The notes under the pieces were generated by a model. The model had not been told where the DNA came from and made no database searches. It worked only from the letters and a program-made list of their open reading frames with translations. Positions 20,930-63,821 of a stretch of 64,000 nt of DNA are shown piece after piece. The DNA comes from an uncultured Clostridia bacterium (GTDB lineage Bacteria; Bacillota; Clostridia; Christensenellales; CAG-138), in assembly GCA_934633695.1 (NCBI GenBank), contig CAKTYT010000001.1, positions 138,643-202,642 on the forward strand, in the 5' to 3' direction. Every line of letters starts with the position of its first letter. The stretch's first letter is position 1. A program made the position numbers and the translations under genes.

Positions 20930-21183
20930 AGACAAGAGTTGCCGTAATGGCCATTATCGTAGAAGATGGTGACGCTGTCGAAAAGCTGAATGCAGTTCTC
21001 CACAATTACGGGGAATACATCATCGGCAGAATGGGCATTCCTTACCGTGCGAGGGGAATTAATATCGTATCCATTGCGATAGATGCACCGCAGGATGAAA
21101 TTTCATCGCTTGCGGGTAAACTCGGAAACATTCATGGTATCAGCGTTAAAACTGCATACTCCAACATTAAGGATGAGAATTGA
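20926..21183 (+). CDS. TM1266-family iron-only hydrogenase system regulator
   Basis: 85 aa starting 'MKTRVAVMAIIVEDGDAVEKLNAVLHNYGEYIIGRMGIPY'. It lies directly upstream of hydE and overlaps it. Confidence 0.75.
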   Translation: MKTRVAVMAIIVEDGDAVEKLNAVLHNYGEYIIGRMGIPYRARGINIVSIAIDAPQDEISSLAGKLGNIHGISVKTAYSNIKDEN

Positions 21184-22222
21184 AGCTGTTTCTCTAATTG
21201 ATAAACTCGCACAACAACACAGTCTCGAGAAAGATGAGTACCTCTTTCTGCTTAAAAACGCCGGCAGAGAGGAGCAAGCTCATGCAGCGAGACTTGCTGA
21301 CAGAATACGAAGGGAAATCTACGGCACTGAGGTTTTTATAAGAGGACTTATAGAGGTCGGAAACATTTGCAGAAACGACTGCTATTATTGCGGAATAAGG
21401 GCATCCAATGGCAAATGTGTTCGTTACACGCTTAGCGATGATCAGATTCTTTCCTGCTGCATGGAGGGATATGGTATAGGCTTTAGAAGCTTTGTCTTAC
21501 AGGGCGGTGAGGGGACATTGTCGGTTGAACGAGTGGAACGTATTGTATCGGGAATACGAAAAGGCTTTCCCGATTGTGCAATAACGCTTTCCCTCGGGGA
21601 ATATGAACATGATGAATACGAGACGTTCTATAAGGCAGGTGCTGATCGGTATCTGCTCAGACATGAAACGGCGGACGAAAGACACTACAATTTGCTTCAT
21701 CCAAGCAAGATGTCTTTTGAACACCGTATGAAGTGCATTGAATCGCTTCGTAGCGTAGGGTTTGCTGTCGGCATCGGCTTCATGGTAGGTTCACCCTTCC
21801 AAACGTATGAAAACATTGCGTCCGACCTCAAATTCATTGAGAAATTTTCGCCGGAAATGTGCGGAATCGGGCCGTTCATTCCGCAAAAAGACACGCCGTT
21901 TGGCAGTTTTCGTGCAGGCTCTGCCGAATTGACATGTTATTTGCTGTCTTTGATAAGGCTTATTAAACCCAACATTCTGCTTCCTGCGACAACGGCATTA
22001 GGTTCTATTGAGGCGGATGGAAGACTCAGGGGAATACTTGCAGGTGCAAATGTTGTTATGCCAAATCTGTCTCCGTTCGAAGTGAGAGACAAATACAACT
22101 TATATGACAACAAACTTTCGACGGGTTCTGAATCCGCACAGAACCTTGAGAAGTTGAAAAAAAGCTTCGGTACAATAGGCTTTACGGTTGCACAATCGCG
22201 GGGCGACATAAAAAATATCTGA
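21173..22222 (+). CDS. hydE: [FeFe] hydrogenase H-cluster radical SAM maturase HydE
   Basis: Radical SAM motif 'CRNDCYYCG' in a BioB-like fold. Start ATG 21173 overlaps the upstream gene by 11 nt. Confidence 0.9.
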   Translation: MRIEAVSLIDKLAQQHSLEKDEYLFLLKNAGREEQAHAARLADRIRREIYGTEVFIRGLIEVGNICRNDCYYCGIRASNGKCVRYTLSDDQILSCCMEGYGIGFRSFVLQGGEGTLSVERVERIVSGIRKGFPDCAITLSLGEYEHDEYETFYKAGADRYLLRHETADERHYNLLHPSKMSFEHRMKCIESLRSVGFAVGIGFMVGSPFQTYENIASDLKFIEKFSPEMCGIGPFIPQKDTPFGSFRAGSAELTCYLLSLIRLIKPNILLPATTALGSIEADGRLRGILAGANVVMPNLSPFEVRDKYNLYDNKLSTGSESAQNLEKLKKSFGTIGFTVAQSRGDIKNI

Positions 22223-22260
22223 CGGAAAGAGCTGATTCTGACCGATAAGAAAGGAAAAAT

Positions 22261-23715
22261 ATGGCTATTTACAATCCAAAATCATTAAGAGCAGAGGATT
22301 TCATCAATCATGAAGAGATTCTCGAAACCATCAAGTACGCAAAAGCAAACAAAAATAATATTGAACTGATCGATGCCATCCTTGAAAAAGCGAGGCCGCA
22401 ACGTTCCGCTGACGGAAAATCCGTACATTGTTCGGGTTTAACGCATAGGGAAGCATCGGTGCTGCTGGCATGCGATATCCCGGAAAAAATCGAGGAAATG
22501 TTCAGGCTTGCAAATGAGATAAAGCTGTCATTCTACGGCAACCGTATAGTTATGTTTGCTCCTCTCTACCTTTCCAACTACTGTGTCAATGGCTGCGTTT
22601 ACTGTCCGTACCACCTGAAAAATAAACACATCGCAAGGAAAAAACTCACACAGCAGGAAATTAGGGATGAAGTAATTGCTCTCCAGGACATGGGCCACAA
22701 ACGCCTTGCGATCGAGGCGGGGGAGGATCCGGTGCACAACCCGATAGAGTACATTCTTGAGTGCATCAAGACGATTTATTCTGTTCACCATAAGAATGGC
22801 GATATCCGCAGAGTGAACGTTAATATAGCTGCAACGACAGTCGAGAACTATCGTAAACTCAAGGATGCCGGAATAGGGACATATATTCTCTTTCAGGAGA
22901 CTTACAATAAGGAAAGCTACCTTGAGCTTCACCCAACGGGACCTAAGCATGACTATGATTACCACACTGAGGCGATGGATCGAGCAATGCAAGGCGGAAT
23001 TGATGATGTCGGACTGGGTGTACTGTTCGGGCTTGAAGGCTATGACTATGAATTTGCAGGGCTTTTAATGCACGCAGAACACCTTGAAGCCGTTCACGGT
23101 GTCGGTCCGCATACAATAAGCGTTCCGAGAATCAAACATGCCGATGATATTGATCCGAATGTGTTCGACAACTCACTTTCAGACGATATGTTTAAAAGAA
23201 TTATTGCCTGCATAAGGATCGCAGTTCCCTATACCGGTATGATTATTTCAACAAGAGAAAGCGAATCCGTGAGGGGTGAGGTGCTTGATTTGGGTATTTC
23301 TCAGATAAGTGGTGCATCAAGGACATCCGTCGGCGGTTACACCGAGGAAGAACGCCCTCACGATTCGGAACAGTTCGACGTTTCTGATATGCGTACATTG
23401 GATGAGGTCGTTGAATGGCTGATGGAGCTTGATCACATTCCCTCGTTCTGCACGGCATGTTACCGGGAGGGAAGAACTGGTGACAGATTCATGAGTCTTT
23501 GCAAAAATGGGCAAATACTTAACTGCTGTCATCCCAACGCACTTATGACGCTCGCAGAATATCTTGTTGATTATGCGAGTTCGAAGACGAAAAAAACCGG
23601 TTTTGCTCTTATCGAACGCGAGCTTGAAAAGATTCCAAACGAAAAGGTGAAACGCATTGCTGCGGAGAACATCGAAAAGATCAAGTCCTCGGATAAGAGA
23701 GATTTCAGATTTTAA
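22261..23715 (+). CDS. hydG: [FeFe] hydrogenase H-cluster radical SAM maturase HydG
   Basis: 484 aa, ThiH-like. 'CVNGCVYCPY' and a C-terminal Cys cluster 'FCTACYREGRTGDRFM'. Confidence 0.92.
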   Translation: MAIYNPKSLRAEDFINHEEILETIKYAKANKNNIELIDAILEKARPQRSADGKSVHCSGLTHREASVLLACDIPEKIEEMFRLANEIKLSFYGNRIVMFAPLYLSNYCVNGCVYCPYHLKNKHIARKKLTQQEIRDEVIALQDMGHKRLAIEAGEDPVHNPIEYILECIKTIYSVHHKNGDIRRVNVNIAATTVENYRKLKDAGIGTYILFQETYNKESYLELHPTGPKHDYDYHTEAMDRAMQGGIDDVGLGVLFGLEGYDYEFAGLLMHAEHLEAVHGVGPHTISVPRIKHADDIDPNVFDNSLSDDMFKRIIACIRIAVPYTGMIISTRESESVRGEVLDLGISQISGASRTSVGGYTEEERPHDSEQFDVSDMRTLDEVVEWLMELDHIPSFCTACYREGRTGDRFMSLCKNGQILNCCHPNALMTLAEYLVDYASSKTKKTGFALIERELEKIPNEKVKRIAAENIEKIKSSDKRDFRF

Positions 23716-23725
23716 CGGAGGGGCT

Positions 23726-24907
23726 ATGGATTTGAATTCAACAGTCAATGCCCAGAGATTGCACATAGGCTTTTTCGGCAGTGTCAACAGCGGAAAGTCA
23801 AGCCTTGTCAACGCATTGACGGGGCAGAAGCTCTCCATTGTATCCGATACGGAGGGAACGACCACCGACCCGGTGCAGAAAGCAATGGAACTGCTCCCAA
23901 TAGGTCCGGTTGTGATAATCGATACTCCGGGTCTTAATGACGGAACGGAGCTTGGCAGACTTCGAATTGAACGGACAATGCAAGTGTTGAGAAAAACCGA
24001 TGTCGCAGTTATTGTCACGGATTCTTCCAAACCGAATGGGGAAGTTGCAGACTTCATTGAAAAAGTCAGGATGAAAGGCATTCCGTTTGTTCTTGTAAGA
24101 AATAAATGCGACCTTACAGATGACTGTCTTGAAGAAAACGGGATGCTGTGCGTTAGTGCAAAGACCGGAAAAAATATTGACGAGCTAAAACAACATATCA
24201 TCAAAAGTGTACCTGCGGCGGGGGGTGAAAGAAAAATCGTTTCGGATTTGCTGGAAAAAGGTGATACGGTTATTCTCGTTACTCCGATAGACGAGGCAGC
24301 TCCGAAGGGGCGGCTGATACTTCCCCAGCAGCAGACAATACGGGACATACTAGACGCAGGAGGTATCTGTTTAACTGTTCAGCCGGACGAACTTGCCGCA
24401 TCGCTCAAGCTGTTGAATGAGCCTCCGAAGATGGTCATTTGCGACTCCCAGGTGTTTGGGTTTGTAGACTCTGTCGTACCAAGAGACATTGCTTTAACAT
24501 CGTTCTCGATCCTGTTTGCGAGGTACAGGGGGAATTTTGAACAGCTTATTAGAGGAGTTAATGCCATTGATGACCTTGAGGACGGAGATACGGTGCTTAT
24601 AAGCGAAGGCTGTACTCACCATCGCCAGTGCGGAGACATCGGTACGGTAAAACTGCCGGGTTGGCTTAAAAAATACACAGGCAAAAAGCTAAATTTTCGA
24701 TTCACCTCCGGCGGCGAATTTCCGGAAGATCTTTCGGAAATTGATCTGGTCGTCCATTGCGGAGGATGTATGCTCAATGCAAACGAGCTTATGGGAAGAC
24801 TTGAAAATTGTGAAGCACAGGGCGTTAAAGTTACAAATTATGGCATTGCTATTGCGAAAATGCACGGTATTCTAAAGAGGTCACTTTCGGTTTTCAAAAT
24901 TAATTAA
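23726..24907 (+). CDS. hydF: [FeFe] hydrogenase H-cluster maturation GTPase HydF
   Basis: G1 motif 'GSVNSGKSSLVNAL', 'DTPGL' and 'NKCD'. C-terminal cluster ligands 'EGCTHHRQC' and 'HCGGC'. RBS GGAGGGG lies before ATG 23726. Confidence 0.9.
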   Translation: MDLNSTVNAQRLHIGFFGSVNSGKSSLVNALTGQKLSIVSDTEGTTTDPVQKAMELLPIGPVVIIDTPGLNDGTELGRLRIERTMQVLRKTDVAVIVTDSSKPNGEVADFIEKVRMKGIPFVLVRNKCDLTDDCLEENGMLCVSAKTGKNIDELKQHIIKSVPAAGGERKIVSDLLEKGDTVILVTPIDEAAPKGRLILPQQQTIRDILDAGGICLTVQPDELAASLKLLNEPPKMVICDSQVFGFVDSVVPRDIALTSFSILFARYRGNFEQLIRGVNAIDDLEDGDTVLISEGCTHHRQCGDIGTVKLPGWLKKYTGKKLNFRFTSGGEFPEDLSEIDLVVHCGGCMLNANELMGRLENCEAQGVKVTNYGIAIAKMHGILKRSLSVFKIN

Positions 24908-26335: not shown

Positions 26336-27376
26336 ATGGAAAAGAAAAAGGTAAGTTTGAAGGGCGTTGAAATAGGTGCAGGTTCGTGCGTCACGATCCA
26401 GTCAATGACAAATACGGACACGCGAGACGTTGAGGCTACAGTCAATCAGATCCTTGAACTTGAAAAAGCGGGCTGTGAAATAGTCCGCTCCTCTGTCTAT
26501 GACGCTGACTGTGTTGAAGCACTGAAACGCATTATCCCATCAATTCATATTCCACTCGTAGCAGATGTTCACTTTGACCACCGCCTTGCAATCGGTGCGA
26601 TTGAGTCGGGGGTTGCAAAGGTACGAATCAACCCCGGCAACATTGGTTCAGAATTAAAAGTGCGTGAACTTGCCGCTTGTGCAAAAGCGAACAATGTGCC
26701 AATACGCATAGGTGTGAACGGAGGTTCACTTGAAAAAGAAATATTGAGAGAGTACGGTGTCACCGCAAAAGCAATGGTGATGAGTGCCGTTAAACATGCT
26801 CAAATGCTTGAAAAAGTAGATTTTGAAGATATTGTGATCTCACTTAAAGCTTCTGACGTTAAAACAACGGTTGAAGCGTACAGATTAGCAAACAAAATGC
26901 TGCCGTATCCGCTCCACCTCGGTGTGACCGAGGCGGGGATGGGCGATGATGCTCTTGTAAAATCCGCTGTCGGAATAGGGAGCTTGCTGCTCGACGGCAT
27001 CGGAGACACAATAAGGGTTTCAATGACAGGCGGTGTCGTTCAGGAAGTTTATGCGGCAAAGAAAATTCTTAAGGCAGTCGGCATAAGGAATTTTGGTCCG
27101 ACTGTGATCTCGTGTCCGACTTGCGGAAGAACGAGGGTCGAACTCCCGAAGATAGTTGAAAAGGTCAAGGCTGCCTTGCCTACGAACGGAAAATCTATCA
27201 AGGTTGCCGTTATGGGCTGTGCGGTCAATGGTCCGGGAGAGGCAAGCGAGGCCGATATAGGTATTGCTTTCGGGAGCAATAATGCAGCCGTATTCAGAGC
27301 GGGAAAAATTGCGTACACGGACAAGCTGCCGGAGGTAATCGACAGGTTTATCGACGACTGCCTGAAACTTGTTTAA
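26336..27376 (+). CDS. ispG: 4-hydroxy-3-methylbut-2-en-1-yl diphosphate synthase (IspG/GcpE)
   Basis: 'VTIQSMTNTDTRDV', 'VRINPGNIG', and cluster ligands 'SCPTCGRT...GCAVNGPGE'. Confidence 0.95.
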   Translation: MEKKKVSLKGVEIGAGSCVTIQSMTNTDTRDVEATVNQILELEKAGCEIVRSSVYDADCVEALKRIIPSIHIPLVADVHFDHRLAIGAIESGVAKVRINPGNIGSELKVRELAACAKANNVPIRIGVNGGSLEKEILREYGVTAKAMVMSAVKHAQMLEKVDFEDIVISLKASDVKTTVEAYRLANKMLPYPLHLGVTEAGMGDDALVKSAVGIGSLLLDGIGDTIRVSMTGGVVQEVYAAKKILKAVGIRNFGPTVISCPTCGRTRVELPKIVEKVKAALPTNGKSIKVAVMGCAVNGPGEASEADIGIAFGSNNAAVFRAGKIAYTDKLPEVIDRFIDDCLKLV

Positions 27377-27395
27377 TGCAAATAGGAGAAGCGTA

Positions 27396-30300
27396 ATGGA
27401 AAACGAACGCAAAAATAAATTGGCAGCTCAGTACGTAAACGACGGAACGATATGCATCTTGCAAGCCGTCCGGAGCAGGAGTTCGGGTACCGTTCGAGTA
27501 AGGATAAGAGCCTCGCGTCTGCTGCTGCCAATGGAAATGGAGCAGATAAGCAGTGAAATTGAAGAAATGCTTATTATGGAAAAGGTTGAGTGCAGTTACG
27601 ATTTCTCCGATGTTTTTGAAGCGGCGGACGGAACAGAGGGCGAAAACGAGCTCCTGCTCAGGGATTTATGGTGCGAGGTCGCTCCTCAGCTCGCCCCGAT
27701 TTTATTGAGAAGCAGGGTTGAACGTATCGGCACTGAGTATATGGTTAGTGTGCCGAAAAGATATCACCTTGCCGTTTCGGTTCAGGCGGTTTCCGACTTC
27801 CGCTCAATGCTTGCCGAAAAATATGATTGGCATACCGCTATCCATGTCATTGCAGATGAAACGCTTCAGGATGATTCGGATACTGTCTTTCCGGTCGTTC
27901 AGCGTGACTGGGGAAAACATCCGACGGTTGCAGCAAAACAACATAAGAAGAAGGAAAAGAAGGCTCTTCCGCAGCAGGACATTATTTACGGGAAGGAAAT
28001 TCTCAAAGTTGATGTCATGAAAATGTGCGATTTGACTGACACTTCCGGCAGGGTAATGGTTAAGGGAACGATTATCGATATTGAGTTCTTTACCTCAAAA
28101 CGCGGCAACGTTATTATAACCATTCTGCTCACGGATAAGACGAATACCGTTCCAGTGAAGCTGTTTCCTGATGAAAGCGTGAAGGCAAGGACGGTTTCTC
28201 TTCTTGAAAAAGCAAAGAGTGAAAGTTGTGCTTTGCTCGTACGCGGACATTACAAATTTGACACGTTCAAAAGTGAATACTGCGTTTTTGCCAATGACAT
28301 AAACAGATATCCGGTTGAACTTAGAATGGACAAGTCAGAGCAAAAGCGTGTCGAGCTGCATTTGCATACTCAGATGTCTGCTATGGATGCAACGGTAAAA
28401 GTCGGCGAGGTTATTGCCCTTGCCGCGAAGTGGGGCCATAAGGCGATTGCAATTACAGACCACGGAGTTGTACACTCTTTCCCGGAAGCGAGGAAGGCTG
28501 CCAAGAAAAACAATATAAAAGTCATATTCGGCTGCGAAGGCTATTTGCTCCCGGATTGCAAATTAATCCCTGCCGAAGGGAATTTCTGTGCAGTCAACCT
28601 GACTTATATCGGTAAGGGGGAACATGGACGGGTATTTGAACTTGCGGCAAGGAGGTTTTCTGCAAATGGAGAAATGCTTGACAGCTTCTATACCCCGGTC
28701 AACCCTTCAGTACCGATAACTCATGCAGTGAGTGAACTCACCGGACTTCACCAAGAAGAAATCGATAGTGCACCATCGCTTAACGAGGCATGCGATGAAC
28801 TGACAAAATTTATAGGGAATGACGTAATAACTTCTCACGATGTGAATAAGCTGCTTCTTCTCAGGACTCTTCTAGGCAGCTCATTCTTAATGAGCAGTGA
28901 GTGCCTCTCAACAAGAATGCTCATGCATTACCTGAGGCGTGATTTGAAAAAAGAGCAGCTTGAGGAGCCTGAACTTAATGCAAAAAACGGTGCCGAATGG
29001 GTTGCGGAACAGGCGGTGAGCTTTATAAGGATGTGCAGGGAGCTGGGCGTGGAAACACTCCCGATTATCGATTATACTGTTGAAAATCCGGAAAAACGCA
29101 GGACCAACCACATCATCTTACTTGCTGCGACACAGCCGGGGTTGAAGAATCTGTATAAATTGATATCATATTCTAACCTTGACCACTTCTATAAGACTCC
29201 GAGAATACCGAGAAGTCTTTTAAATCTGCATCGTGAAGGAATAATTCTCGGTACAGCTTGTGAAGCGGGCGAACTCTTTCGTGCAATGATCAGCGGTGAG
29301 TCGGAAGAAAAGCTGGAAGAAATCGCTTCGTGGTACGATTTTCTTGAGATTCAGCCGATAGGAAACAATGAATTTCTCATCCGAGAAGGTCTTGCGAAAG
29401 ATAATGAGGACCTGAGAAATTTGAACAGAAGAATCGTCAATATCGCAGATAAGCTCGGAAAGCCGATAGTTGCAACGGGTGACGTACACTTTATTGACCC
29501 CGAGGATTCGATTTTCCGTGCAATCCTCATGAGCAGTATGGGTTTTAAGGATGCAAACCGTCAACCGCCGCTTTATTTTCGGACGACTGAGGACATGCTC
29601 GAGGAATTTTCTTACCTTGGAAGAGAAAAAGCTTTTGAAGCCGTTGTGGAGAATTCAAATAAAATTGCAGACATGTGTGAACAGCTCCGCCCGTTCCTGG
29701 ACGACAAACAGACCTATTCACCGGAGCTTCCCGGTGCCGCGGAGGAGCTTAAAGGGCTTGCAGTCAGTAAGGCACATGAGCTGTACGGCGAAGTCCTTCC
29801 CGAAATTGTGCAGGCAAGACTTGATAAAGAGCTTAAATCGATAATCGGAAACGGATATTCCTCGCTCTACATGGTCGCACAAAAACTGGTTTCAAAGTCC
29901 CTGTCCGATGGGTATCTTGTAGGGTCGAGGGGTTCGGTAGGTTCATCGTTTGTTGCTTACCTTTCGGGTATAACAGAAGTTAATTCACTCTCAGCTCATT
30001 ACCGCTGCCCGAATTGCAAATACAGCGAATTTCCCGAAATTGACGGAGACTCACGCTGCGGTATGGACCTTCCGCCGAAAAAATGTCCGATTTGCGGAAC
30101 AGAGCTCAAGCGTGACGGCTATGAGATACCCTTTGAGACCTTTCTCGGCTTTAAAGGTGATAAGACTCCCGACATTGACTTAAACTTTTCAGGAGAGTAT
30201 CAGCCGGTTGCTCATAAGTTTACTGAAGTCATGTTCGGCGAGGGTCATGCATTCAGAGCGGGGACAATCACCGCTGTTCAAGATAAAAACGTTTACGGCT

Positions 30301-31589
30301 TTGTTCAGCACTACTGTGAGGAAAATGAGCTTAATGTGTCCGAGGCTGAAAAGACAAGGCTTGTTCAGGGCTGTGTGGGGACCAGGAAAACGACCGGACA
30401 GCATCCGGGCGGTATCGTTATAGTGCCGGAAGACTTGGAAATTTTCGATTTTTGTCCCGTTCAGCACCCTGCGGAGAAGGTTGGTGCAGACAGCATAACA
30501 ACGCATTTCGACTTTCATGCACTTGACGATAAGCTTGTTAAATTAGACATACTCGGGCATGACGATCCTACGTCGCTCAGAATGCTTCAGGATATAACGG
30601 GGATAGACCCTAAAACAATACCGCTTCAAGATGAAGATACGATGTCGATTTTCAAAACCGATAAGATCCTGGGAATCTCTCTGAGCGGCCTCGGCTGCGA
30701 TGTCGGCAGCATCGGCATACCGGAGTTCGGTACGGGGTTTGTAAGGGGAATGCTTATGGATACAAGGCCAACCACAATGGAGGAGCTTGTCAGAATCGCC
30801 GGCCTTTCGCACGGCACGGATGTGTGGCTCAACAATGCACAGGATCTTGTACGCAATGGAACTGCAAGCCTGTTGGAGGTTATCTGTACGAGAGATGATA
30901 TTATGAACTACCTAATTGCCCATGGCGGAGAGCCGTCACTCTCATTTAAAACAATGGAGAGCGTTCGAAAGGGCAGGGGATTGACGGAGGAGATGGAAGC
31001 GGCAATGCATAAGAACAATGTCCCTCAGTGGTACATTGACAGCTGCAAAAAAATCAAGTATATGTTCCCAAGGGCACATGCGGCGGCTTATGTAATGATG
31101 AGTTTCCGCATTGCATACTTCAAAGTTCACTATCCTCTGGAATTCTATTCGGTTTATTTTACCGTACGTGCCGATAAATTCGATATAGAGCTGAGTTCGG
31201 GCGGTGCGGATGCTGTTTTGAGGAAAATCAAAGAGATCAGCGGCAGCAAAGAAAAACTCGAGCAAAAGGAAACAGATCAGATTACGATACTTGAAGTTGT
31301 TTATGAGATGAATCTGAGAGGAATCGAACTTCTGCCAATTGACATTTACAAGTCGAAAGCAACAAAGTTTGTGGTCGAGGAGGGAAAGATCCGCCCGCCG
31401 TTTAACGCAATTGCCGGTCTCGGAGACAATGCCGCAAGGTGCATTGAAAACGGTGCGAAGGGAGGAACTTTCATCTCAAGAGAAGATTTTATAAAGAAAA
31501 CTAAGGCGAATTCAGCTGTAATGGAGACTCTTTCGCGTCTCGGCTGCCTTGATTCCCTGCCTGAAAGGAATCAGGTGTCAATGTTTTAG
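27396..31589 (+). CDS. polC: DNA polymerase III alpha subunit, PolC type
   Basis: The PHP domain ('RVELHLHTQMS', 'ITDHG') is split by an exonuclease-like insert. Also present are the Zn module 'CPNCKYSEF...CPICG' and the polymerase motif 'PDIDLNFSGEYQ'. RBS AGGAGA lies before ATG 27396. Confidence 0.97.
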   Translation: MENERKNKLAAQYVNDGTICILQAVRSRSSGTVRVRIRASRLLLPMEMEQISSEIEEMLIMEKVECSYDFSDVFEAADGTEGENELLLRDLWCEVAPQLAPILLRSRVERIGTEYMVSVPKRYHLAVSVQAVSDFRSMLAEKYDWHTAIHVIADETLQDDSDTVFPVVQRDWGKHPTVAAKQHKKKEKKALPQQDIIYGKEILKVDVMKMCDLTDTSGRVMVKGTIIDIEFFTSKRGNVIITILLTDKTNTVPVKLFPDESVKARTVSLLEKAKSESCALLVRGHYKFDTFKSEYCVFANDINRYPVELRMDKSEQKRVELHLHTQMSAMDATVKVGEVIALAAKWGHKAIAITDHGVVHSFPEARKAAKKNNIKVIFGCEGYLLPDCKLIPAEGNFCAVNLTYIGKGEHGRVFELAARRFSANGEMLDSFYTPVNPSVPITHAVSELTGLHQEEIDSAPSLNEACDELTKFIGNDVITSHDVNKLLLLRTLLGSSFLMSSECLSTRMLMHYLRRDLKKEQLEEPELNAKNGAEWVAEQAVSFIRMCRELGVETLPIIDYTVENPEKRRTNHIILLAATQPGLKNLYKLISYSNLDHFYKTPRIPRSLLNLHREGIILGTACEAGELFRAMISGESEEKLEEIASWYDFLEIQPIGNNEFLIREGLAKDNEDLRNLNRRIVNIADKLGKPIVATGDVHFIDPEDSIFRAILMSSMGFKDANRQPPLYFRTTEDMLEEFSYLGREKAFEAVVENSNKIADMCEQLRPFLDDKQTYSPELPGAAEELKGLAVSKAHELYGEVLPEIVQARLDKELKSIIGNGYSSLYMVAQKLVSKSLSDGYLVGSRGSVGSSFVAYLSGITEVNSLSAHYRCPNCKYSEFPEIDGDSRCGMDLPPKKCPICGTELKRDGYEIPFETFLGFKGDKTPDIDLNFSGEYQPVAHKFTEVMFGEGHAFRAGTITAVQDKNVYGFVQHYCEENELNVSEAEKTRLVQGCVGTRKTTGQHPGGIVIVPEDLEIFDFCPVQHPAEKVGADSITTHFDFHALDDKLVKLDILGHDDPTSLRMLQDITGIDPKTIPLQDEDTMSIFKTDKILGISLSGLGCDVGSIGIPEFGTGFVRGMLMDTRPTTMEELVRIAGLSHGTDVWLNNAQDLVRNGTASLLEVICTRDDIMNYLIAHGGEPSLSFKTMESVRKGRGLTEEMEAAMHKNNVPQWYIDSCKKIKYMFPRAHAAAYVMMSFRIAYFKVHYPLEFYSVYFTVRADKFDIELSSGGADAVLRKIKEISGSKEKLEQKETDQITILEVVYEMNLRGIELLPIDIYKSKATKFVVEEGKIRPPFNAIAGLGDNAARCIENGAKGGTFISREDFIKKTKANSAVMETLSRLGCLDSLPERNQVSMF

Positions 31590-31709: not shown

Positions 31710-31737
31710 GAGTGGGCAAGACCCGCTCTTTAATTTT
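31710..31737 (+). promoter_or_regulatory. leader hairpin plus U-rich tract (possible attenuator) upstream of rimP
   Basis: GAGTGGG (31710-31716) pairs with CCCGCTC (31722-31728), followed by TTTAATTTT. Confidence 0.35.
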
Positions 31738-31765
31738 GAAAAAGCTTTTTGCGGAGGATACAGTA

Positions 31766-32218
31766 TTGAAGATTGCCGATAAGGTTTTTCCCATCGTTGA
31801 ACCGACGGTCGCAGGCATGGGCTATGAATTGTATGAGGTAGAGTTCCAAAAGGAATACGATAACTGGGTTTTGACACTTTATATTGACGGACCCAATGGA
31901 ATTTCTTTGGACGATTGCGAAGCGGTCAGCCGTGCAGTTGACCCCGTCCTCGATGAAGCGGACCCGATTGAACAGCCGTACTACCTTTCCGTCAGCTCAA
32001 TAGGTCTTGACAGGCCGATAAAGACGGATAAAGATTTTTCAAGAAACATCGGCAATAAAATAGATATCAAGCTTTATGCCCCGATAAATAAGAAAAAAGA
32101 ACTTGTCGGCAGGCTCGTCTCATTTGACCCGGAAAGTTTTACAGTCTCGGTTGACGAAATTGAGATGAAAATCGAACGAAAAAAAGCGGCACTTGTAAGA
32201 CCGCACATAGATTTTTGA
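31766..32218 (+). CDS. rimP: ribosome maturation factor RimP
   Basis: TTG at 31766 lies 8 nt after GGAGG (31753-31757). 'VAGMGYELYEVEF' is the RimP core. The track's GTG at 31712 lies inside the leader hairpin. Confidence 0.8.
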   Translation: MKIADKVFPIVEPTVAGMGYELYEVEFQKEYDNWVLTLYIDGPNGISLDDCEAVSRAVDPVLDEADPIEQPYYLSVSSIGLDRPIKTDKDFSRNIGNKIDIKLYAPINKKKELVGRLVSFDPESFTVSVDEIEMKIERKKAALVRPHIDF

Positions 32219-32242
32219 TTCACGGTATGAAAGGATAGAATA

Positions 32243-33400
32243 ATGAACCAGGAAGTTATTTCGGCCATTAAGGCAATATGCAAAGAGAGAAACCTCTCCA
32301 TTGATGTCCTCGCAGATGCAATTGAGAACGCAATGGTAAGTGCATATAAAAAGAATTACAATATCAACTGCAACGTCAGAACTTCATTTGACAGGGAAAC
32401 AGGCAAAACTCAGATTTGGGTTTCGAAGAATGTTGTTGACGAAGTTTATGATGATAAAACTGAAATTTCACTTGATGAAGCGAAGAAAATTAATCCCTTC
32501 TTTGAAGTCGGCGATGTAGTTGAGGTCGAGGCATTTGCAAAAGATTTTGGCAGAATTGCTGCTCAGACTGCGAAGCAGGTTGTAATGCAGAGAATCAGAG
32601 AAGCAGAACAGGGTGCGATTTTTAGTGAGTATGCGGATAAAGAGAACGAGGTACTCACGGCCATTGTACAAAGAGTTGAAAAGAACGGCGTGTACGTTGA
32701 GCTTGGAAAGACTGATGGCATCATTCCGTTCAATGAGGTTATTAACGGGGAGGTTTATTCGCCAAATACCAGACTTAAGGTCTATGTTCTTAAGGTTCAG
32801 CGTGATTCAAAGGGTCCTCAGATCATTGTTTCGAGAACGCATCCAGGTCTTGTAAAGAGACTGTTCGAACTTGAAATTCCTGAAATTCATAGTGGTGTTG
32901 TCCAAATAAAGTCAATAGCGAGAGAAGCGGGTCAGAGGACAAAAATTGCAGTTGCAAGCACAGATCCGCAGGTCGATGCGGTCGGTGCCTGTGTCGGTCA
33001 GCGTGGAGTCAGGGTTGAACGCATTGTTGGCGAGCTGCATAATGAGAAGATGGATATTATTGAGTGGGATTCCGATGTCGCCGTTTATATTGCAAAGGCA
33101 TTGGGTCCGGCAAGGGTGCTGATGGTCTATGTCAATGCCGAAGAACAGGCGGCGAAGGTCATAGTTCCCGATAGTCAGCTATCGCTTGCAATCGGGAAAG
33201 AGGGTCAGAATGCGAGACTTGCAGCAAAACTTACCGGGTGGAAAATCGACATCAAGAGTCAGTCGCAGGCTGAATCCGATATGGAAATCGATTACAACGG
33301 CGATATGGACGGATTGATGAACTCTGATAGCCGATCTGCCGAAGACGAAAATTTTGCGGGTGAACAGGTTGAAGAGCTTGAATTCATTGAAGAAGATTGA
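32243..33400 (+). CDS. nusA: transcription termination/antitermination factor NusA
   Basis: 385 aa with S1 and KH domains. Motifs 'AAQTAKQVVMQRIREAE' and 'LAIGKEGQNARLAAKLTGWKIDI'. Confidence 0.97.
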   Translation: MNQEVISAIKAICKERNLSIDVLADAIENAMVSAYKKNYNINCNVRTSFDRETGKTQIWVSKNVVDEVYDDKTEISLDEAKKINPFFEVGDVVEVEAFAKDFGRIAAQTAKQVVMQRIREAEQGAIFSEYADKENEVLTAIVQRVEKNGVYVELGKTDGIIPFNEVINGEVYSPNTRLKVYVLKVQRDSKGPQIIVSRTHPGLVKRLFELEIPEIHSGVVQIKSIAREAGQRTKIAVASTDPQVDAVGACVGQRGVRVERIVGELHNEKMDIIEWDSDVAVYIAKALGPARVLMVYVNAEEQAAKVIVPDSQLSLAIGKEGQNARLAAKLTGWKIDIKSQSQAESDMEIDYNGDMDGLMNSDSRSAEDENFAGEQVEELEFIEED

Positions 33401-41306: not shown

Positions 41307-42122
41307 ATGTTTCTGTTTGATTATCACGTACATACAAGTTGTTCATTTGATTCTATGTGTCTGCCTGCCGAACAGGTTTTTTCGGCGTCAAAAAGGGGCA
41401 TAAGCGAACTTTGCTTCACCGACCACATCGATTTTGACACGCCTGAGGGTATGGGACATAAATCTGCGGACCTTTCGGAACTGCGAAGTATGGTCGGCGA
41501 ACTTTATCCGACATACAATGGCATGAAATTGAAAATCGGTGCTGAAATCAGCTTGGGAAACGCGAAAGTTGCAGATGACGTAAATGAGTACGTCGCCCGT
41601 TTTAAACCCGATTTTATTATTGCCTCGATACATCGCATTGACGGTTTGCCCGTTTACAAGCCTGAGTTTTATTCGAATAGAACAAAACATGATGCATATT
41701 TCGCATACCTTAATGCAATTTACAATGGAATATGCAGCAACGATGAATTTGACGTCATAGGTCATTATGATTTTATAACGAAATATGCACCTTATGCAGA
41801 CAGGTCAATGCACCTCGGAGAAGACGAACGCATCGACGAAACGATAAAAAAGATTTTCAGGCTGTTGATAAGCAGGGGACAGGGTATCGAAATAAACTCT
41901 TCTGCGTGGTGGAATGAGGCTTGTACGGGTGACGACATAATTAAATTATACACAACACTCGGAGGAGAATTTGTGACGATTGGTTCGGATGCTCATGTTT
42001 CTGAAAACGTAGGCAATAGGCTCGATGAGGCATTGGAACAGGCGTATAGGTGCGGAGTTAAATATGTTGCAACGTATTCGGAACGGAAACCGGAGTTCCA
42101 CAAAGTTGAGAGACTTATGTGA
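41307..42122 (+). CDS. HisJ-family PHP-domain histidinol-phosphatase-like protein
   Basis: 271 aa. 'DYHVHTSCSFDS', 'FTDHIDF' and 'GSDAH' are PHP metal-ligand motifs. A strong RBS GGAGGAG is present. Confidence 0.8.
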   Translation: MFLFDYHVHTSCSFDSMCLPAEQVFSASKRGISELCFTDHIDFDTPEGMGHKSADLSELRSMVGELYPTYNGMKLKIGAEISLGNAKVADDVNEYVARFKPDFIIASIHRIDGLPVYKPEFYSNRTKHDAYFAYLNAIYNGICSNDEFDVIGHYDFITKYAPYADRSMHLGEDERIDETIKKIFRLLISRGQGIEINSSAWWNEACTGDDIIKLYTTLGGEFVTIGSDAHVSENVGNRLDEALEQAYRCGVKYVATYSERKPEFHKVERLM

Positions 42123-45100
42123 GGAGATTTATTTTGGAAGACTTTTCTGAACAAAAGAAATATTCTGATTCAGCAGATTCTGAAGTGCTTACTGTTCAGG
42201 ATGCTCTTGACAGATGTATTGACTATATAGGCAAGGTGGATTTTGATGTTATCTCATCGATAATCAAACTGCCAAAAAGGAAGGTCATGCTCTCTTTGAA
42301 AGGGTCCGTTTATTTTGACCCGGAGAAAAGTGAATTTGTCACGTCAGAAGAGTACTTGTCAGGAAAAGTATACAAAAAACTCTGCATCGTTAAGAAAGCT
42401 GCCGAGCAGGGAAATATTCCGGATGGGGTCGATTATAATGACAATATCGATGCATTAACGCTCATTATGCCCAAACGCATTGAGGCAAAGCAGATAAAGG
42501 CTAGTATAGGCAGTCCATGGATACCGCCCTATGTATATCGTGATTTCATTGTCGCATTGATTGGCATAAAATCAAATTCGGGGAAAATAGGTCTGCGTGT
42601 CGAATACATAAAAAAAGCAAACCACTACATTATTTACGGCAAAAAGAATTTTATGGGATTTACAAGGGCGAGAATGACTTACGGTACAGAAAGAATGAAT
42701 GCCTTTGAAATCATTGAACGACTGCTAAATTCGAGGGAAATTGCCGTCTATGATTCGGCTCTCAGTGAAAGTGGGCAGCCTACAAGGAAAATTAATCGTG
42801 CCGAGACTCTTGCGGCTCAGGAAAAAGCAAAACAGATAAGCGAGTTATTCCATTTCTGGCTTTTTAAAGATGAGCCGCGACGGACTGAACTGTTGAATTT
42901 TTATAACGAAAATTTCTGTGCTTTAGTTCCGCGGCGATTTGATGGAAGCCGAATGCTGCTGCCAGGGAAAAATACTGATATAAGTCTGCAAAAACACCAG
43001 CTCGATGCAATAAAACGTATTGTTCATTCAAAAAACATTCTGCTTGCACATCAGGTAGGTGCAGGTAAGACTTATGTTATGGCTGCTGCGGCCATGGAAC
43101 TGCGAAGATTGAAAATCTCAAGGAGAAACTTATTCGTTGTTCCGAATAATATTCTTGAGCAATGGTACAACGAATTTCAGCATCTCTATCCGGATGCGGC
43201 TTTGATGCTCGTTCAGCCCAAAAACTTTACGCCGTCAACAAGAAACAAAACTTTAAGAGAAATCATGCAACATGATTACGATGCGATAATCATGGGTTAT
43301 GGCAGCTTCTCATTGATTCCTCTATCAAATGAGGAGCGGGAGAAAGAGCTTAATGCCATTTTGAACGATATTTCTAACGTTATGACGGATGTTGTCTACA
43401 ATGATGCCTATGTTGTGCTGAATCGATTCGCTTCAAGGGTCGAAAACAGACTCCACAAGATTTGGGAGAGTGAGGAAAAGATGCAGCCGGATACAATTTT
43501 CTTCGACCAGCTCGGCATTGACACACTCTTTATAGATGAGGCACATAACTTCAAAAATATAAGCATTGAAACAAAGCATGGAGCTTTGCCCGGACTGAAT
43601 ACAAAGGGATCAAAGCGGTGCGACGATCTCATGGCAAAGGTTAGGTTTATCCAAAGAACTCATGGTGGGAGAGGTGCAGTATTTGCAACCGGTACTCCGA
43701 TAACAAACTCAGTCTCTGACCTCTATACACTACAACGTTACCTTGACTATGAGCACCTTGAGGAGCTTAATCTGTTAGAATTCGACAATTGGGTTAAAAT
43801 GTTCTCTGAAGTTACGGAAGAGTTTGAAGTTGAGGCAAATGGAATTGGATACAGGCTGCGTTCAAGATTGAGTAAGTATTATAACCTACCCGAACTTTCC
43901 TTGTTGATTTCGAACATCGCTGATTTATATTATACATCGAACGATGACAAAAAACTGCCACAGCATGTTGAAGTCGTGAATTGCACGGTTTCGGCCAGCC
44001 CGGCTCTAAGAGCGTATATTGAAACTCTTGCCGACCGTGCCGAACTTGTCAAATCCGGTATCGTGCCGAGAACAGTTGACAATATGCTGAAAATTACAAC
44101 TGATGGAAGAAAAGCCGCACTAGATATGCGTCTTGTGGATCCCGAGCTGCCCGATGATGAAGATTCAAAGCTGAATCGATGTGTACGCAATGTGTTTGAA
44201 ATTTGGAACGGGAACAGCAAACTTACCCAGTTGATCTTCCTTGACCAGAGTACACCAAAGGAAGGGTTCAATCTCTATGATGACATAAAAAATAAGCTCG
44301 TCGTACTCGGTGTTCCGCAGGAGGAAATTGCCTTCGTACACGATGCAGTAAATGATAATATGCGAGTTGCACTCTTCAACAAAGTCCGTAAGGGAAAGAT
44401 TCGCATTCTCATTGGTTCGACCTTCAAGCTGGGTATCGGTGCGAACGTGCAAAACAACCTCTATGCCGTTCACCATCTCGACATTCCGTGGCGTCCGAGT
44501 GATGTTATACAGCGTGAAGGCCGAATGCTGAGACAGGGAAATAAAAACGATGATGTCAGGATTTATCGTTATATAACTCAAGGCAGCTTTGATGCGTATT
44601 CGTGGCAGCTGCTGGAGAATAAGCAGAGGTTCATTTCGCAGATTGTAAATGGAAATTATCCGGCAAGAAGCGGTGACGAGGTTGATGAAGTCGTTCTAAC
44701 GTATAGTGAAGTAAAATCACTTGCTGTCGGCAATCCGCTCATAAAGCGAAGGATAGAGGTAGAAACACGGCTTCAGCGTTCCCTTATGCTGAAAGCCAAG
44801 CATGATAAAAACAGAGTTGCTGCCGGGGAGGAACTTCTCAAATTTCCTGCGAAGCGAATGGAACTTGAGCGGCTCAAAGAAATCTTCGCTGAAGATGCAC
44901 AGCTTGTTCTCGATAGTACACCACAGTCATTCCGGATGCAGCTTATGGATGAGATATTTACAAAGAGACGCGATGCAGGCGAAAGATTAACCGAACTTTT
45001 GGCTGAGTACGCATTCATCCGTGAAGACAAACTGATTGGAAAATATCGGGGACTTGATGTATACCTTGCCAACGATGCGGCGGGGGCGAGAAGAATTTTC

Positions 45101-45346
45101 ATGCTCAAAGGCAGAGGAAACTATCAGTCGGAACTCAGTACGAGTGCAATAGGCATAATCTCGAGAATGGATAATGTTATTAATGGAATAAAGCAGCGTT
45201 ATGAAAATTCGGTTGAAAAACTCGAGGGGCTTGCACTAGATGAGCAGGAACTTATCGCAAGAAGAGATACACCATCGCCGCTTGAGGGAGAAATTGCAGA
45301 ACTTCGTGCCGAACTCAGGAAGGTAAACCGAGAACTCGGCATGTGA
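42119..45346 (+). CDS. SNF2/DEAH-type SF2 helicase (helicase module of methylase-helicase 'polyvalent' proteins, without methylase)
   Basis: Motif I 'AHQVGAGKTYV', II 'FIDEAHNFKN', III 'ATGTPITNS' and VI 'QREGRMLRQGN'. An N-terminal 'EEYLSGKVYKKL' region and a coiled-coil C-terminus are also present. The GTG start overlaps the upstream stop. Confidence 0.8.
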   Translation: MRRFILEDFSEQKKYSDSADSEVLTVQDALDRCIDYIGKVDFDVISSIIKLPKRKVMLSLKGSVYFDPEKSEFVTSEEYLSGKVYKKLCIVKKAAEQGNIPDGVDYNDNIDALTLIMPKRIEAKQIKASIGSPWIPPYVYRDFIVALIGIKSNSGKIGLRVEYIKKANHYIIYGKKNFMGFTRARMTYGTERMNAFEIIERLLNSREIAVYDSALSESGQPTRKINRAETLAAQEKAKQISELFHFWLFKDEPRRTELLNFYNENFCALVPRRFDGSRMLLPGKNTDISLQKHQLDAIKRIVHSKNILLAHQVGAGKTYVMAAAAMELRRLKISRRNLFVVPNNILEQWYNEFQHLYPDAALMLVQPKNFTPSTRNKTLREIMQHDYDAIIMGYGSFSLIPLSNEEREKELNAILNDISNVMTDVVYNDAYVVLNRFASRVENRLHKIWESEEKMQPDTIFFDQLGIDTLFIDEAHNFKNISIETKHGALPGLNTKGSKRCDDLMAKVRFIQRTHGGRGAVFATGTPITNSVSDLYTLQRYLDYEHLEELNLLEFDNWVKMFSEVTEEFEVEANGIGYRLRSRLSKYYNLPELSLLISNIADLYYTSNDDKKLPQHVEVVNCTVSASPALRAYIETLADRAELVKSGIVPRTVDNMLKITTDGRKAALDMRLVDPELPDDEDSKLNRCVRNVFEIWNGNSKLTQLIFLDQSTPKEGFNLYDDIKNKLVVLGVPQEEIAFVHDAVNDNMRVALFNKVRKGKIRILIGSTFKLGIGANVQNNLYAVHHLDIPWRPSDVIQREGRMLRQGNKNDDVRIYRYITQGSFDAYSWQLLENKQRFISQIVNGNYPARSGDEVDEVVLTYSEVKSLAVGNPLIKRRIEVETRLQRSLMLKAKHDKNRVAAGEELLKFPAKRMELERLKEIFAEDAQLVLDSTPQSFRMQLMDEIFTKRRDAGERLTELLAEYAFIREDKLIGKYRGLDVYLANDAAGARRIFMLKGRGNYQSELSTSAIGIISRMDNVINGIKQRYENSVEKLEGLALDEQELIARRDTPSPLEGEIAELRAELRKVNRELGM

Positions 45347-45368
45347 GCGTTCATTGAAAGGGAAATGT

Positions 45369-63710: not shown

Positions 63711-63792
63711 ATAAAATCTCCGATAAAAAGACAGAACCAAATCCCGAACCGAATAAAAAAAGCTCCGAACAAGGTCCGTATATAATAGTGAT

Positions 63793-63821
63793 ATGATACC
63801 GATTTTTTCCTCATTTGTCAA
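63793..63821 (-). promoter_or_regulatory. sigmaA promoter of SPT-like/SDR operon
   Basis: On the minus strand: TTGACA (63821-63816), a 17-nt spacer, then TATCAT (63798-63793). Confidence 0.55.

What the first reader, a model, noticed from the sequence alone, without database searches (positions are those of the whole stretch)
28570..29090. PolC keeps the proofreading-domain fold but appears to have lost all DEDDh catalytic residues
The insert that splits the PHP domain is clearly homologous to the Firmicute PolC 3'-5' exonuclease. Shared blocks include 'FELAA', 'VNPSVPI..ELTGL....SAP' and 'FIGNDVITSH'.

The catalytic positions, however, are substituted:
- Exo I canonical 'FDVETTG' reads 'VNLTYIG' (D->N at 28596-28598, E->T at 28602-28604).
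- Exo II 'AHNASFD' reads 'SHDVNKL' (28833-28853), so the Asp is replaced by Leu.
- Where Exo III 'H-x4-D' is expected, I find 'NAKNGAEWVAEQA' with neither His nor Asp.

The polymerase Asp motif ('PDIDLNF') and the PHP metal ligands ('HLHT', 'TDHG') look intact, so the gene is not a pseudogene. This predicts a replicative polymerase with no intrinsic DEDDh proofreading. Proofreading would then have to come from a trans-acting DnaQ-like exonuclease, from the PHP domain, or be relaxed.
Basis: partly seen in the sequence, partly recalled or inferred. Interest (0 to 1): 0.6.

Follow-up and report, generated by a model that had tools for sequence, protein, structure and literature searches.

The report
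Replicative PolC with a dead proofreading domain
The main DNA-copying enzyme (PolC) of this gut-type Clostridia bacterium, and of about 95 related protein clusters, keeps the folded shell of its built-in proofreading nuclease but has lost every catalytic residue, so error correction most likely falls to a second, older nuclease site (PHP) that is fully intact in the same protein.

Summary
The ORF at 27369-31589 (+) is a full-length, orthologous PolC; its likely true start is the ATG at 27396. It scores 1504 bits on the NCBIfam PolC equivalog model (cut-off 873) and lies in the usual ispG-polC-rimP-nusA-infB context.

The roughly 180-aa insert in the PHP domain (nt 28560-29102) is confidently predicted to have a DnaQ/DEDDh fold (pLDDT 96). 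The five catalytic positions read N410, T412, L495, L536 and G541 instead of D, E, D, H, D.

This is not a single-genome oddity. Ninety-five of the 120 closest protein clusters also lack the pentad; the few that carry names are Christensenellaceae or Clostridia MAGs. All 102 exo-active PolCs I compared keep it.

In the dead clade the insert evolves about twice as fast as in active PolCs (29% vs 60% pairwise identity). It still changes far more slowly than silent sites and keeps its length.

All nine PHP metal ligands (HHDHEHCDH) are invariant. B. subtilis-type PolC has N at the eighth position.

Best explanation: a retained pseudo-exonuclease, with PHP as the likely proofreader. That last step is inferred, not shown.

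PolCs that lack the Exo insert altogether were already reported in Clostridia. A retained but dead insert appears not to have been described. I rate it a new variant of a known kind, of moderate interest.

The parts
27396..31589 (+). polC gene (PolC-type DNA polymerase III alpha). The ORF finder extends it to TTG 27369; the likely start is ATG 27396, giving 1397 aa.
   Evidence: ORF. (NF001688 PolC equivalog, 1504 bits against a cut-off of 873). (public gene call P0121 is identical from M10). (AGGAG upstream of the ATG).
28341..28559 (+). N-terminal part of the PHP domain (aa 325-397), carrying ligands H331, H333, D340, H365 and E390.
   Evidence: Pfam PHP, aa 329-396. (these ligands are invariant in 113 aligned sequences).
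28560..29102 (+). DnaQ/DEDDh-fold insert (aa 398-578) with no catalytic residues: a pseudo-exonuclease domain.
   Evidence: AlphaFold pLDDT 96.1, pTM 0.91. (Foldseek: 9qpc_A Exo domain, TMq 0.73, E 3.6e-9, then DEDDh nucleases). (Pfam RNase_T only 25.5 bits, aa 418-493)..
28590..28613 (+). Exo I remnant AVNLTYIG. The catalytic Asp is N410 (28596-28598) and the catalytic Glu is T412 (28602-28604).
   Evidence: In E. faecium PolC, mutating the equivalent D431A+E433A gives the Exo-null enzyme (PMC12592400).
28833..28853 (+). Exo II remnant SHDVNKL. The catalytic Asp is L495 (28851-28853).
   Evidence: In the dead clade this column is L/M/Y/V/I/A in 97 of 97 sequences.
28974..29015 (+). Exo III remnant (LNAKNGAEWVAEQA). 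MAFFT places the His at L536 and the Asp at G541. The segment has no His or Asp and is 10-13 residues shorter than in active PolC.
   Evidence: The profile alignment stops at aa 532.
29103..29648 (+). C-terminal part of the PHP domain (aa 579-760), carrying ligands H581, C631, D705 and H707. This completes the motif HHDHEHCDH.
   Evidence: (the PHP part of the model matches G. kaustophilus PolC 3f2b/3f2c at rmsd 4.2-4.3 A).
30168..30188 (+). Polymerase catalytic motif PDIDLNF (D935, D937).
   Evidence: DD in 121 of 121 sequences. (DNA_pol3_alpha, 181 bits).
30540..30557 (+). KLDILG, the expected position of the third polymerase aspartate. The assignment rests on my own knowledge of homology to E. 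coli Pol III alpha and was not tested here.
   Evidence: The column is nearly invariant.
26336..27376 (+). ispG (GcpE), the conserved upstream neighbour of polC.
   Evidence: GcpE lies directly upstream of polC in all relatives examined.
31712..33400 (+). rimP and nusA, the conserved downstream neighbours, followed by ylxR, L7Ae and infB.

Best explanation
This is the orthologous, essential-type replicative PolC of a Christensenellaceae-like Clostridia lineage.

Its DnaQ-type proofreading domain has become a pseudo-enzyme. The fold and the insertion into the PHP domain are kept. All five DEDDh metal- and substrate-activating residues are replaced by residues that cannot bind Mg2+, and the surrounding substrate-binding motifs (ETTG, HNAxFD, DTL, HxAxxD) are eroded. 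The domain therefore cannot carry out two-metal 3'-5' exonucleolysis. This follows from the residues shown here and from established DEDDh chemistry.

The loss happened once or twice near the base of a large clade and has been stable since (shown).

It was probably tolerated because clostridial PolC carries a second, ancestral nuclease site: the trinuclear-metal PHP site, whose nine ligands are all intact here. I infer that PHP now supplies PolC's proofreading, as it does in M. tuberculosis DnaE1 and Thermus Pol III alpha.

I also infer that the dead insert is kept for a structural role. It sits in the PHP loop that, in DnaE1, lines the single-strand path into the PHP active site.

Confidence differs by step: about 0.93 that the insert is catalytically dead and retained lineage-wide, and about 0.5 that PHP is the working proofreader. 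The figure given for the whole statement is a compromise between the two.
For: - Identity and orthology: the NCBIfam PolC equivalog scores 1504 bits against a cut-off of 873. Synteny is conserved as ispG-polC-rimP-nusA-infB in the window, in an 88%-identical relative, and in 50-53%-identical dead-exo relatives on 2.44-Mb and 1.6-Mb contigs.
- Dead site: the five positions read N, T, L, L, G by MAFFT and by an independent profile. No column in the insert is His in 50% or more of the dead clade. Only one column is acidic in 60% or more, and it is not a catalytic position.
- Fold kept: pLDDT 96.1, with DEDDh nucleases as top structural matches.
- Lineage-wide: 95 of the 120 nearest clusters lack the pentad, including clusters with 5171, 2537 and 492 member sequences. 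All 102 exo-active PolCs keep it.
- Relaxed but not neutral: insert pairwise identity is 0.29 in the dead clade against 0.60 in active PolCs, while every other domain is equally conserved in the two groups. Against an 88%-identical orthologue, insert dN is 0.155 against 0.025 in the polymerase core, with silent sites saturated (pS 0.64-0.82). Insert length is kept, with a median of 175 aa against 185.
- PHP intact: HHDHEHCDH is present in 95 of 96 dead-exo sequences, and all nine ligands are invariant in a 113-sequence alignment. Bacilli PolCs, including B. subtilis, have N at ligand 8. That is the change reported to leave G. kaustophilus PolC PHP without exonuclease activity (PMC5636811).
- Redundancy: Clostridia usually carry three 'active' proofreaders, namely PolC PHP, PolC DnaQ and DnaE1 PHP (PMC12926913).
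- Location: the DnaQ domain is inserted in the loop next to the PHP active site (PMC5636811).
- No other DnaQ-like domain is present in the 64-kb window.
Against: - PHP exonuclease activity has never been demonstrated for any PolC, as far as the papers I could search show.
- Exo-active clostridial PolCs have the same 9/9 PHP motif. An intact PHP is therefore the ancestral state and not a specific compensation.
- The conserved PHP metal site could serve other roles. A structural role (PMC3666897) and a pyrophosphatase role (PMC4822814) have both been proposed; I saw only the titles and abstracts of these two papers.
- The rest of the genome could not be searched, so a trans-acting DnaQ homologue or a dominant role for DnaE1 is not excluded.
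- The AlphaFold model of PHP plus insert superposes poorly as a whole on the E. faecium cryo-EM structure (TMq 0.59, rmsd 14.5 A). The geometry of the insert relative to the PHP site is therefore unknown.
Confidence: 0.6

Rival explanations
1. A separately encoded DnaQ-like exonuclease supplies proofreading in trans. It would dock on PolC as epsilon does on E. coli Pol III alpha, possibly on the retained dead domain.
For: Bacterial proteomes carry on average more than three stand-alone DnaQ homologues (PMC12926913). In B. subtilis the PolC exonuclease can act in trans for DnaE3 (same paper). Retention of a folded, selected insert would fit a docking platform.
Against: No DnaQ-like domain lies in the 64-kb window. 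None lies next to polC in five related loci. No PolC-epsilon partnership is known.
Confidence: 0.18
2. PolC in this clade does not proofread at all. Fidelity is relaxed or is rescued downstream, by mismatch repair or by DnaE1 with its own PHP doing much of the synthesis.
For: Timinskas et al. raised the possibility that DnaE1 is the main replicase in PolC+DnaE1 bacteria. They noted that PolCs lacking the integral exonuclease occur only in clostridial genomes (PMC3919608). An Exo-null E. faecium PolC polymerises robustly in vitro (PMC12592400).
Against: The nine PHP ligands are invariant across a clade that diverged to about 50% identity, which argues that the site is used. The polymerase core is under very strong constraint (dN 0.025), as expected of a working replicase. 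No mutation-rate data are available.
Confidence: 0.15
3. This is a diverged extra copy, and a canonical polC with an active exonuclease sits elsewhere in the genome.
For: Some bacteria carry two PolCs (Table 1 of PMC3919608). I could not scan the whole genome.
Against: This copy occupies the ancestral polC locus. It passes the equivalog cut-off by a wide margin. The non-insert domains are as conserved as in exo-active PolCs. None of the 25 exo-active proteins in the top-120 list shares a longest-contig length with a dead-exo protein; this is only a weak check.
Confidence: 0.03
4. The catalytic residues are present but shifted, so the apparent loss is an alignment artefact.
For: The C-terminal third of the insert carries an indel and cannot be aligned by profile.
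Against: Exo I and Exo II align unambiguously by two methods. Loss of the first Asp and Glu alone gives an Exo-null enzyme. The Exo III segment contains no His or Asp. The dead clade has no conserved His and no conserved acidic residue at any candidate site.
Confidence: 0.02

Closest known systems
Canonical Firmicute PolC (B. subtilis, S. aureus, E. faecium 9QPC, G. kaustophilus 3F2B)
   Same: Same family and same domain order: NTD, OB, PHP split by a DnaQ-fold insert, palm/thumb/fingers, HhH. It also shares the polymerase aspartates, a C-terminal QxxxF-type tail and the genomic neighbourhood.
   Different: In the canonical enzymes the insert is an active DEDDh proofreader, and in Bacilli the PHP site is degraded (D->N at ligand 8). 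Here the pattern is reversed: the insert is dead and PHP is 9/9.
PolC variants that lack the Exo insertion altogether (6% of PolCs, only in Clostridia and Negativicutes; Timinskas et al. 2014, PMC3919608)
   Same: Both are PolCs without DnaQ-type proofreading in the PolC+DnaE1 type of Firmicute. The likely evolutionary logic, redundancy with PHP proofreaders, is the same.
   Different: Those were reported as having no insertion. Here a roughly 175-180-aa folded insert is kept and is under purifying selection. Whether some of the 2014 'Exo-less' cases were undetected dead inserts cannot be told from the paper. In most relatives here Pfam RNase_T is not detected.
PHP-proofreading C-family replicases (M. 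tuberculosis DnaE1, Thermus Pol III alpha)
   Same: All nine PHP metal ligands are present, and there is no active DEDD nuclease in the polypeptide.
   Different: Those are DnaE1-type enzymes with a simple loop where PolC carries the DnaQ-fold insert. Their PHP exonuclease activity is shown experimentally; here it is only inferred.
Polymerases with vestigial 3'-5' exonuclease domains (many Pol I orthologues, actinobacterial PolA2/APEX, PolB2)
   Same: A DnaQ-like fold is retained with a disrupted active site, and the pattern is lineage-specific (PMC12926913).
   Different: Those are repair or accessory polymerases of families A and B. [quoted passage not shown] This case is the opposite.

Membership tests
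PolC-type DNA polymerase III alpha (NCBIfam NF001688 / TIGR01405) | Full-length match above the curated equivalog cut-off | tested here: met
   1504 bits against 873, and 1374 bits against 1043.
PolC-type DNA polymerase III alpha | Domain order OB - PHP (split by an insert) - Pol3 core - fingers - HhH | tested here: met
   Pfam domains in that order. Alignment to 9qpc over aa 194-1406.
PolC-type DNA polymerase III alpha | Polymerase catalytic aspartates (PDIDLNF) | tested here: met
   D935 and D937 are present; DD in 121 of 121 sequences.
PolC-type DNA polymerase III alpha | Integral active DEDDh proofreading exonuclease | tested here: not met
   The positions read N410, T412, L495, L536 and G541. 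The protein is still an orthologous PolC by every other criterion, so I file it as a PolC variant.
PolC-type DNA polymerase III alpha | Orthologous genomic position (...ispG/proS-polC-rimP-nusA-infB) | tested here: met
DnaQ-like / DEDDh 3'-5' exonuclease superfamily | RNase H-like DnaQ fold | tested here: met
   AlphaFold pLDDT 96.1. Foldseek probability 1.00 to the PolC Exo domain, DinG, 3'hExo, TREX1/2 and epsilon.
DnaQ-like / DEDDh 3'-5' exonuclease superfamily | Four acidic residues plus His/Tyr that bind two metals | tested here: not met
   None of the five is present, and there is no conserved substitute in the clade. The insert is a structural homologue, not a functional member.
PHP-type proofreading exonuclease (as in Mtb DnaE1) | Nine metal ligands HHDHEH[C/H]DH | tested here: met
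   H331, H333, D340, H365, E390, H581, C631, D705 and H707. All nine are invariant in 113 sequences.
PHP-type proofreading exonuclease (as in Mtb DnaE1) | Measured 3'-5' exonuclease activity on mismatched primer ends | not testable with these tools
   This needs a biochemical assay.
PolC + DnaE1 replication system of Clostridia | A DnaE1 with an intact PHP site encoded in the same genome | not testable with these tools
   There is no dnaE in the 64-kb window. Whole genomes cannot be scanned here.

The most novel reading that the evidence does not exclude
A large, abundant clade of gut and rumen Clostridia replicates with a PolC that has switched its proofreader back from the acquired DnaQ domain to the ancestral PHP nuclease. 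The dead DnaQ fold is kept as a structural module next to the PHP site, for example to guide the primer 3' end. This would be the first natural PolC in which PHP is the only possible intrinsic proofreader.
Probability: 0.45. Interest if true: 0.65.

Novelty: new variant of a known kind. Interest (0 to 1): 0.5.

Why it matters
PolC is the textbook example of a replicase with a built-in DEDDh proofreader, and it is an antibiotic target.

Whether the intact PHP site of clostridial PolC is a working nuclease is an open question, because the active DnaQ domain masks it in every studied enzyme. This clade is a natural exonuclease-null background. A single purified protein, with and without PHP-ligand mutations, would answer the question.

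The case also contradicts a recent generalisation that, in Pol III alpha subunits, only the PHP site becomes inactivated and never the DnaQ site.

It shows how redundancy among three proofreaders can be resolved differently in different Firmicute lineages. Bacilli lost PHP; this clade lost DnaQ.

It may also bear on mutation rates in Christensenellaceae-like gut bacteria.

Tried and rejected
- Representative-library search with the insert alone. It returned only weak generic DnaQ-family hits (best 71 bits, 871 hits at E <= 1e-3), all to the N-terminal half. It was useless as a census of dead-exo PolCs.
- Genome-collection scan with the PolC protein. The scan was still useful as a panel of 79 PolCs, which included 77 exo-active sequences such as B. 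subtilis.
- Cluster look-up for organism names. It gave almost no names. Taxonomy therefore rests on a few labels (Christensenellaceae bacterium, Clostridia bacterium, Candidatus Pelethousia), and these are loose. One MAG labelled Christensenellales (L010) has an active exonuclease.
- Single versus multiple loss. A neighbour-joining tree of the non-insert columns puts a 23-member exo-active group among the dead groups, on internal branches of only 0.005-0.01. In 100 bootstraps the dead set was monophyletic 42 times and needed two changes 58 times. The question is unresolved.
- dN/dS proper could not be computed, because silent sites are saturated against the closest available orthologue. Only dN ratios are reported.
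- The supplementary tables of the 2026 polymerase survey were truncated in the library, so the Christensenella minuta entry could not be read.
- The stand-alone PHP protein at 41307-42122 was considered as a trans nuclease. It was rejected because it is a HisJ-family histidinol phosphatase.
Full report
**What is there.** The finding lies inside one long ORF, 27369-31589 on the + strand (1406 aa). The more likely start is the ATG at 27396. It is preceded by AGGAG and matches the public gene call of 1397 aa, P0121, which is identical from M10. Residue numbers below follow the 1406-aa ORF.

The protein is a PolC-type DNA polymerase III alpha subunit. It scores 1504 bits on the NCBIfam equivalog NF001688 (cut-off 873) and 1374 bits on TIGR01405. 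Pfam finds PHP (two pieces), DNA_pol3_alpha, the finger domain and HHH_6. It aligns over aa 194-1406 to the E. faecium PolC cryo-EM structure 9QPC.

The flanking genes are ispG upstream and rimP, nusA, ylxR, L7Ae, infB, rbfA, nrnA, truB and ribF downstream. The rest of the window is ordinary chromosome: dprA, topA, trmFO, hslU, ogg, thrS, hydE/G/F, a GyrB/ParE-like protein and yqfD.

**Checking the observation.** I aligned the protein with its 120 best database homologues. I then added 79 PolCs extracted from reference genomes, including B. subtilis.

| DEDDh position | Residue in exo-active PolCs | Residue here |
|---|---|---|
| Exo I Asp | D | N410 |
| Exo I Glu | E | T412 |
| Exo II Asp | D | L495 |
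| Exo III His | H | L536 |
| Exo III Asp | D | G541 |

The five columns read D, E, D, H, D in all 102 exo-active sequences.

An HMM built only from active inserts gives the same placement for Exo I (fdiettG against VNLTYIG) and Exo II (ahnasfd against SHDVNKL). Its alignment stops at aa 532, before Exo III. That segment is 10-13 residues shorter than in active enzymes and contains neither His nor Asp.

The equivalent D431A+E433A double mutant is the standard Exo-null form of E. faecium PolC, and it still polymerises (PMC12592400). The first two substitutions alone would therefore abolish the activity.

**Is the fold kept?** Yes. AlphaFold2 on aa 398-578, with a 113-sequence alignment, gives mean pLDDT 96.1 and pTM 0.91. 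Foldseek against the PDB returns the Exo domain of PolC 9qpc_A first (TMq 0.73, rmsd 3.4 A). DinG, 3'hExo, ERI, TREX1/2, T. maritima PolC Exo and E. coli epsilon follow, all at probability 1.00.

**Is it lineage-wide?** Yes. Ninety-five of the 120 nearest 90%-identity clusters, down to about 50% full-length identity, lack the pentad. The 25 that keep it are the more distant ones, such as Acetivibrio. The dead-exo clusters include very populous ones with 5171, 2537, 492, 419 and 377 member sequences. The few names attached are Christensenellaceae bacterium, Clostridia bacterium and Candidatus Pelethousia. The exact window protein is encoded on 14 contigs read from several assemblies.

In the dead clade the catalytic columns have drifted:
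- first Asp: A/S/E/G/D/T
- Glu: T/V/N/A
- second Asp: L/M/Y/V/I/A, in 97 of 97 sequences
- His and last Asp columns: almost random

No column of the insert is His in half or more of the sequences. Only one column is acidic in 60% or more, namely D525 in a YLRRDLK motif, and it is not a catalytic position. No replacement active site has evolved.

A neighbour-joining tree of the non-insert columns groups all dead sequences with one exo-active group of 23, on a clear branch (0.075). The order inside that group rests on branches of only 0.005-0.01. Bootstrapping gave a monophyletic dead set in 42 of 100 replicates. There were one or two losses; I cannot say which.

**What selection says.** Pairwise identity by domain is the same in the dead and active groups for every domain except the insert:

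| Domain | Dead clade | Exo-active PolCs |
|---|---|---|
| PHP-N | 0.71 | 0.74 |
| PHP-C | 0.64 | 0.65 |
| Palm/thumb | 0.76 | 0.74 |
| Fingers | 0.75 | 0.70 |
| Insert | 0.29 | 0.60 |

(All.)

Against the 88%-identical orthologue (L081), non-synonymous divergence is 0.155 in the insert, 0.157 in the N-terminal domain and 0.006-0.028 in the PHP and polymerase parts. Silent sites are saturated, with pS 0.64-0.82.

The insert has therefore lost the catalytic level of constraint. It is still far from neutral, keeps its length (median 175 aa against 185) and keeps its hydrophobic core positions. That is the signature of a retained structural pseudo-enzyme.

**Not a spare copy.** The gene sits in the ancestral polC position in four places:
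- the window itself
- an 88%-identical relative
- a 53%-identical dead-exo relative on a 2.44-Mb contig
- a 50%-identical dead-exo relative on a 1.6-Mb contig, where the upstream half of the neighbourhood is conserved

In the two large contigs the upstream neighbourhood reads pyrH-frr-uppS-(cdsA)-dxr-rseP-ispG-polC. I could not scan a whole genome, so a second polC is unlikely rather than excluded.

**Where could proofreading come from?** All nine PHP metal ligands are present: H331, H333, D340, H365, E390, H581, C631, D705 and H707, giving HHDHEHCDH. They are invariant in the 113-sequence alignment.

B. subtilis and other Bacilli PolCs read HHDHEHCNH. This is the single change that Baños-Mateos et al. 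cite for G. kaustophilus PolC, which lacks PHP exonuclease activity. The full nine-residue site is an active proofreader in M. tuberculosis DnaE1 and Thermus Pol III alpha (PMC5636811). The same paper notes that the PolC DnaQ domain is inserted in the loop that, in DnaE1, lines a groove continuous with the PHP active site.

The 2026 survey of bacterial polymerases reports that Clostridia usually have three 'active' proofreaders: PolC PHP, PolC DnaQ and DnaE1 PHP (PMC12926913).

The simplest reading is that this redundancy allowed the DnaQ site to decay in this lineage, just as the PHP site decayed in Bacilli, and that PHP now does the job.

This last step is inference. Exo-active clostridial PolCs have the same intact PHP site. 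No PolC PHP has been shown to be a nuclease in the papers I could search. Other roles for PHP have been proposed.

A trans-acting DnaQ homologue is the main rival. None is encoded in the 64-kb window or beside polC in the relatives examined. The genome at large was out of reach.

**Relation to what is known.** Timinskas et al. (2014) found that 6% of PolCs 'lack the Exo insertion', exclusively in Clostridia and Negativicutes, which pair PolC with DnaE1 (PMC3919608). PolC without DnaQ proofreading is therefore known in principle.

I did not find any description of a PolC that keeps a folded insert with a dead site (three full-text searches). [quoted passage not shown] This clade is a counter-example. 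I therefore rate it a new variant of a known kind.

**An unexplained detail.** A second AlphaFold model, covering PHP-N, the insert and PHP-C (aa 322-770), is very confident (pLDDT 96.2, pTM 0.92). It matches 9qpc over 480 columns (E 4e-42), but with TMq 0.59 and rmsd 14.5 A. The PHP-only crystal structures fit at 4.2-4.3 A, and the insert alone fits at 3.4 A. Either the insert docks differently on PHP in the model, or the superposition followed one domain only. Without a control model of an active PolC, and without coordinates to inspect, this is only a lead.

**Verdict.** The most likely mechanism is PHP proofreading with a retained structural pseudo-exonuclease, at moderate confidence. Interest is moderate. 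The finding turns the open question of whether the PolC PHP site is a real proofreader into a one-protein experiment.

Noticed in passing
window 27369-27398: The ORF finder starts polC at TTG 27369, overlapping the end of ispG (27376). An ATG at 27396 with an AGGAG ten bases upstream matches the public gene call (1397 aa) and is the more likely start.
   Followed up: yes
window 28332-29678 (model m2bbb1887fd18): The confident AlphaFold model of PHP plus the dead insert fits the E. faecium PolC cryo-EM structure poorly as a whole (TMq 0.59, rmsd 14.5 A), although each domain fits well alone. The insert may dock differently on PHP, or this may be an artefact of the truncated construct.
   Followed up: partly
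window 28929-28949 (aa 521-527, YLRRDLK): This is the best-conserved motif in the C-terminal half of the dead insert across the clade; D525 is acidic in 82% of sequences. Exo-active PolCs have L.r.l.p.lknhkL at the same place. It may mark a contact surface retained or gained after the loss of catalysis.
   Followed up: no
P0084-P0114, L003-L005 (closest exo-active PolCs): The nearest exo-active relatives form a group of 23 sequences. Most are 1300-1374 aa and match only about 86-90% of the query. They appear to lack part of the N-terminal domain that the dead-exo PolCs keep.
   Followed up: no
window 41307-42122 (+): A stand-alone 271-aa PHP-domain protein lies downstream of plsY and is conserved at the same place in relatives (L081, L084). 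It scores as a HisJ-family histidinol phosphatase (TIGR01856, 120 bits against a cut-off of 90), so it is not a candidate proofreader.
   Followed up: yes
window 42119-47342 (+): A 1075-aa SNF2/ResIII-type helicase is followed directly by a 662-aa GyrB/ParE-type topoisomerase subunit. No GyrA/ParC partner was seen among the ORFs I annotated.
   Followed up: no
window 62544-63821 (-): A BioF/Kbl-family PLP acyltransferase has as its best NCBIfam match the Bacteroidetes-type serine palmitoyltransferase (528 bits, below the 640 cut-off). It is a possible sphingolipid-synthesis gene in a Clostridia genome.
   Followed up: no
window 1-64000: GC skew is positive in almost every 4-kb bin, and most genes are on the + strand. 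This is consistent with the whole window lying on one leading-strand replichore. The window also holds [FeFe]-hydrogenase maturases hydE/G/F (21083-24907) and sporulation genes (a weak SleB-like match, yqfD).
   Followed up: no
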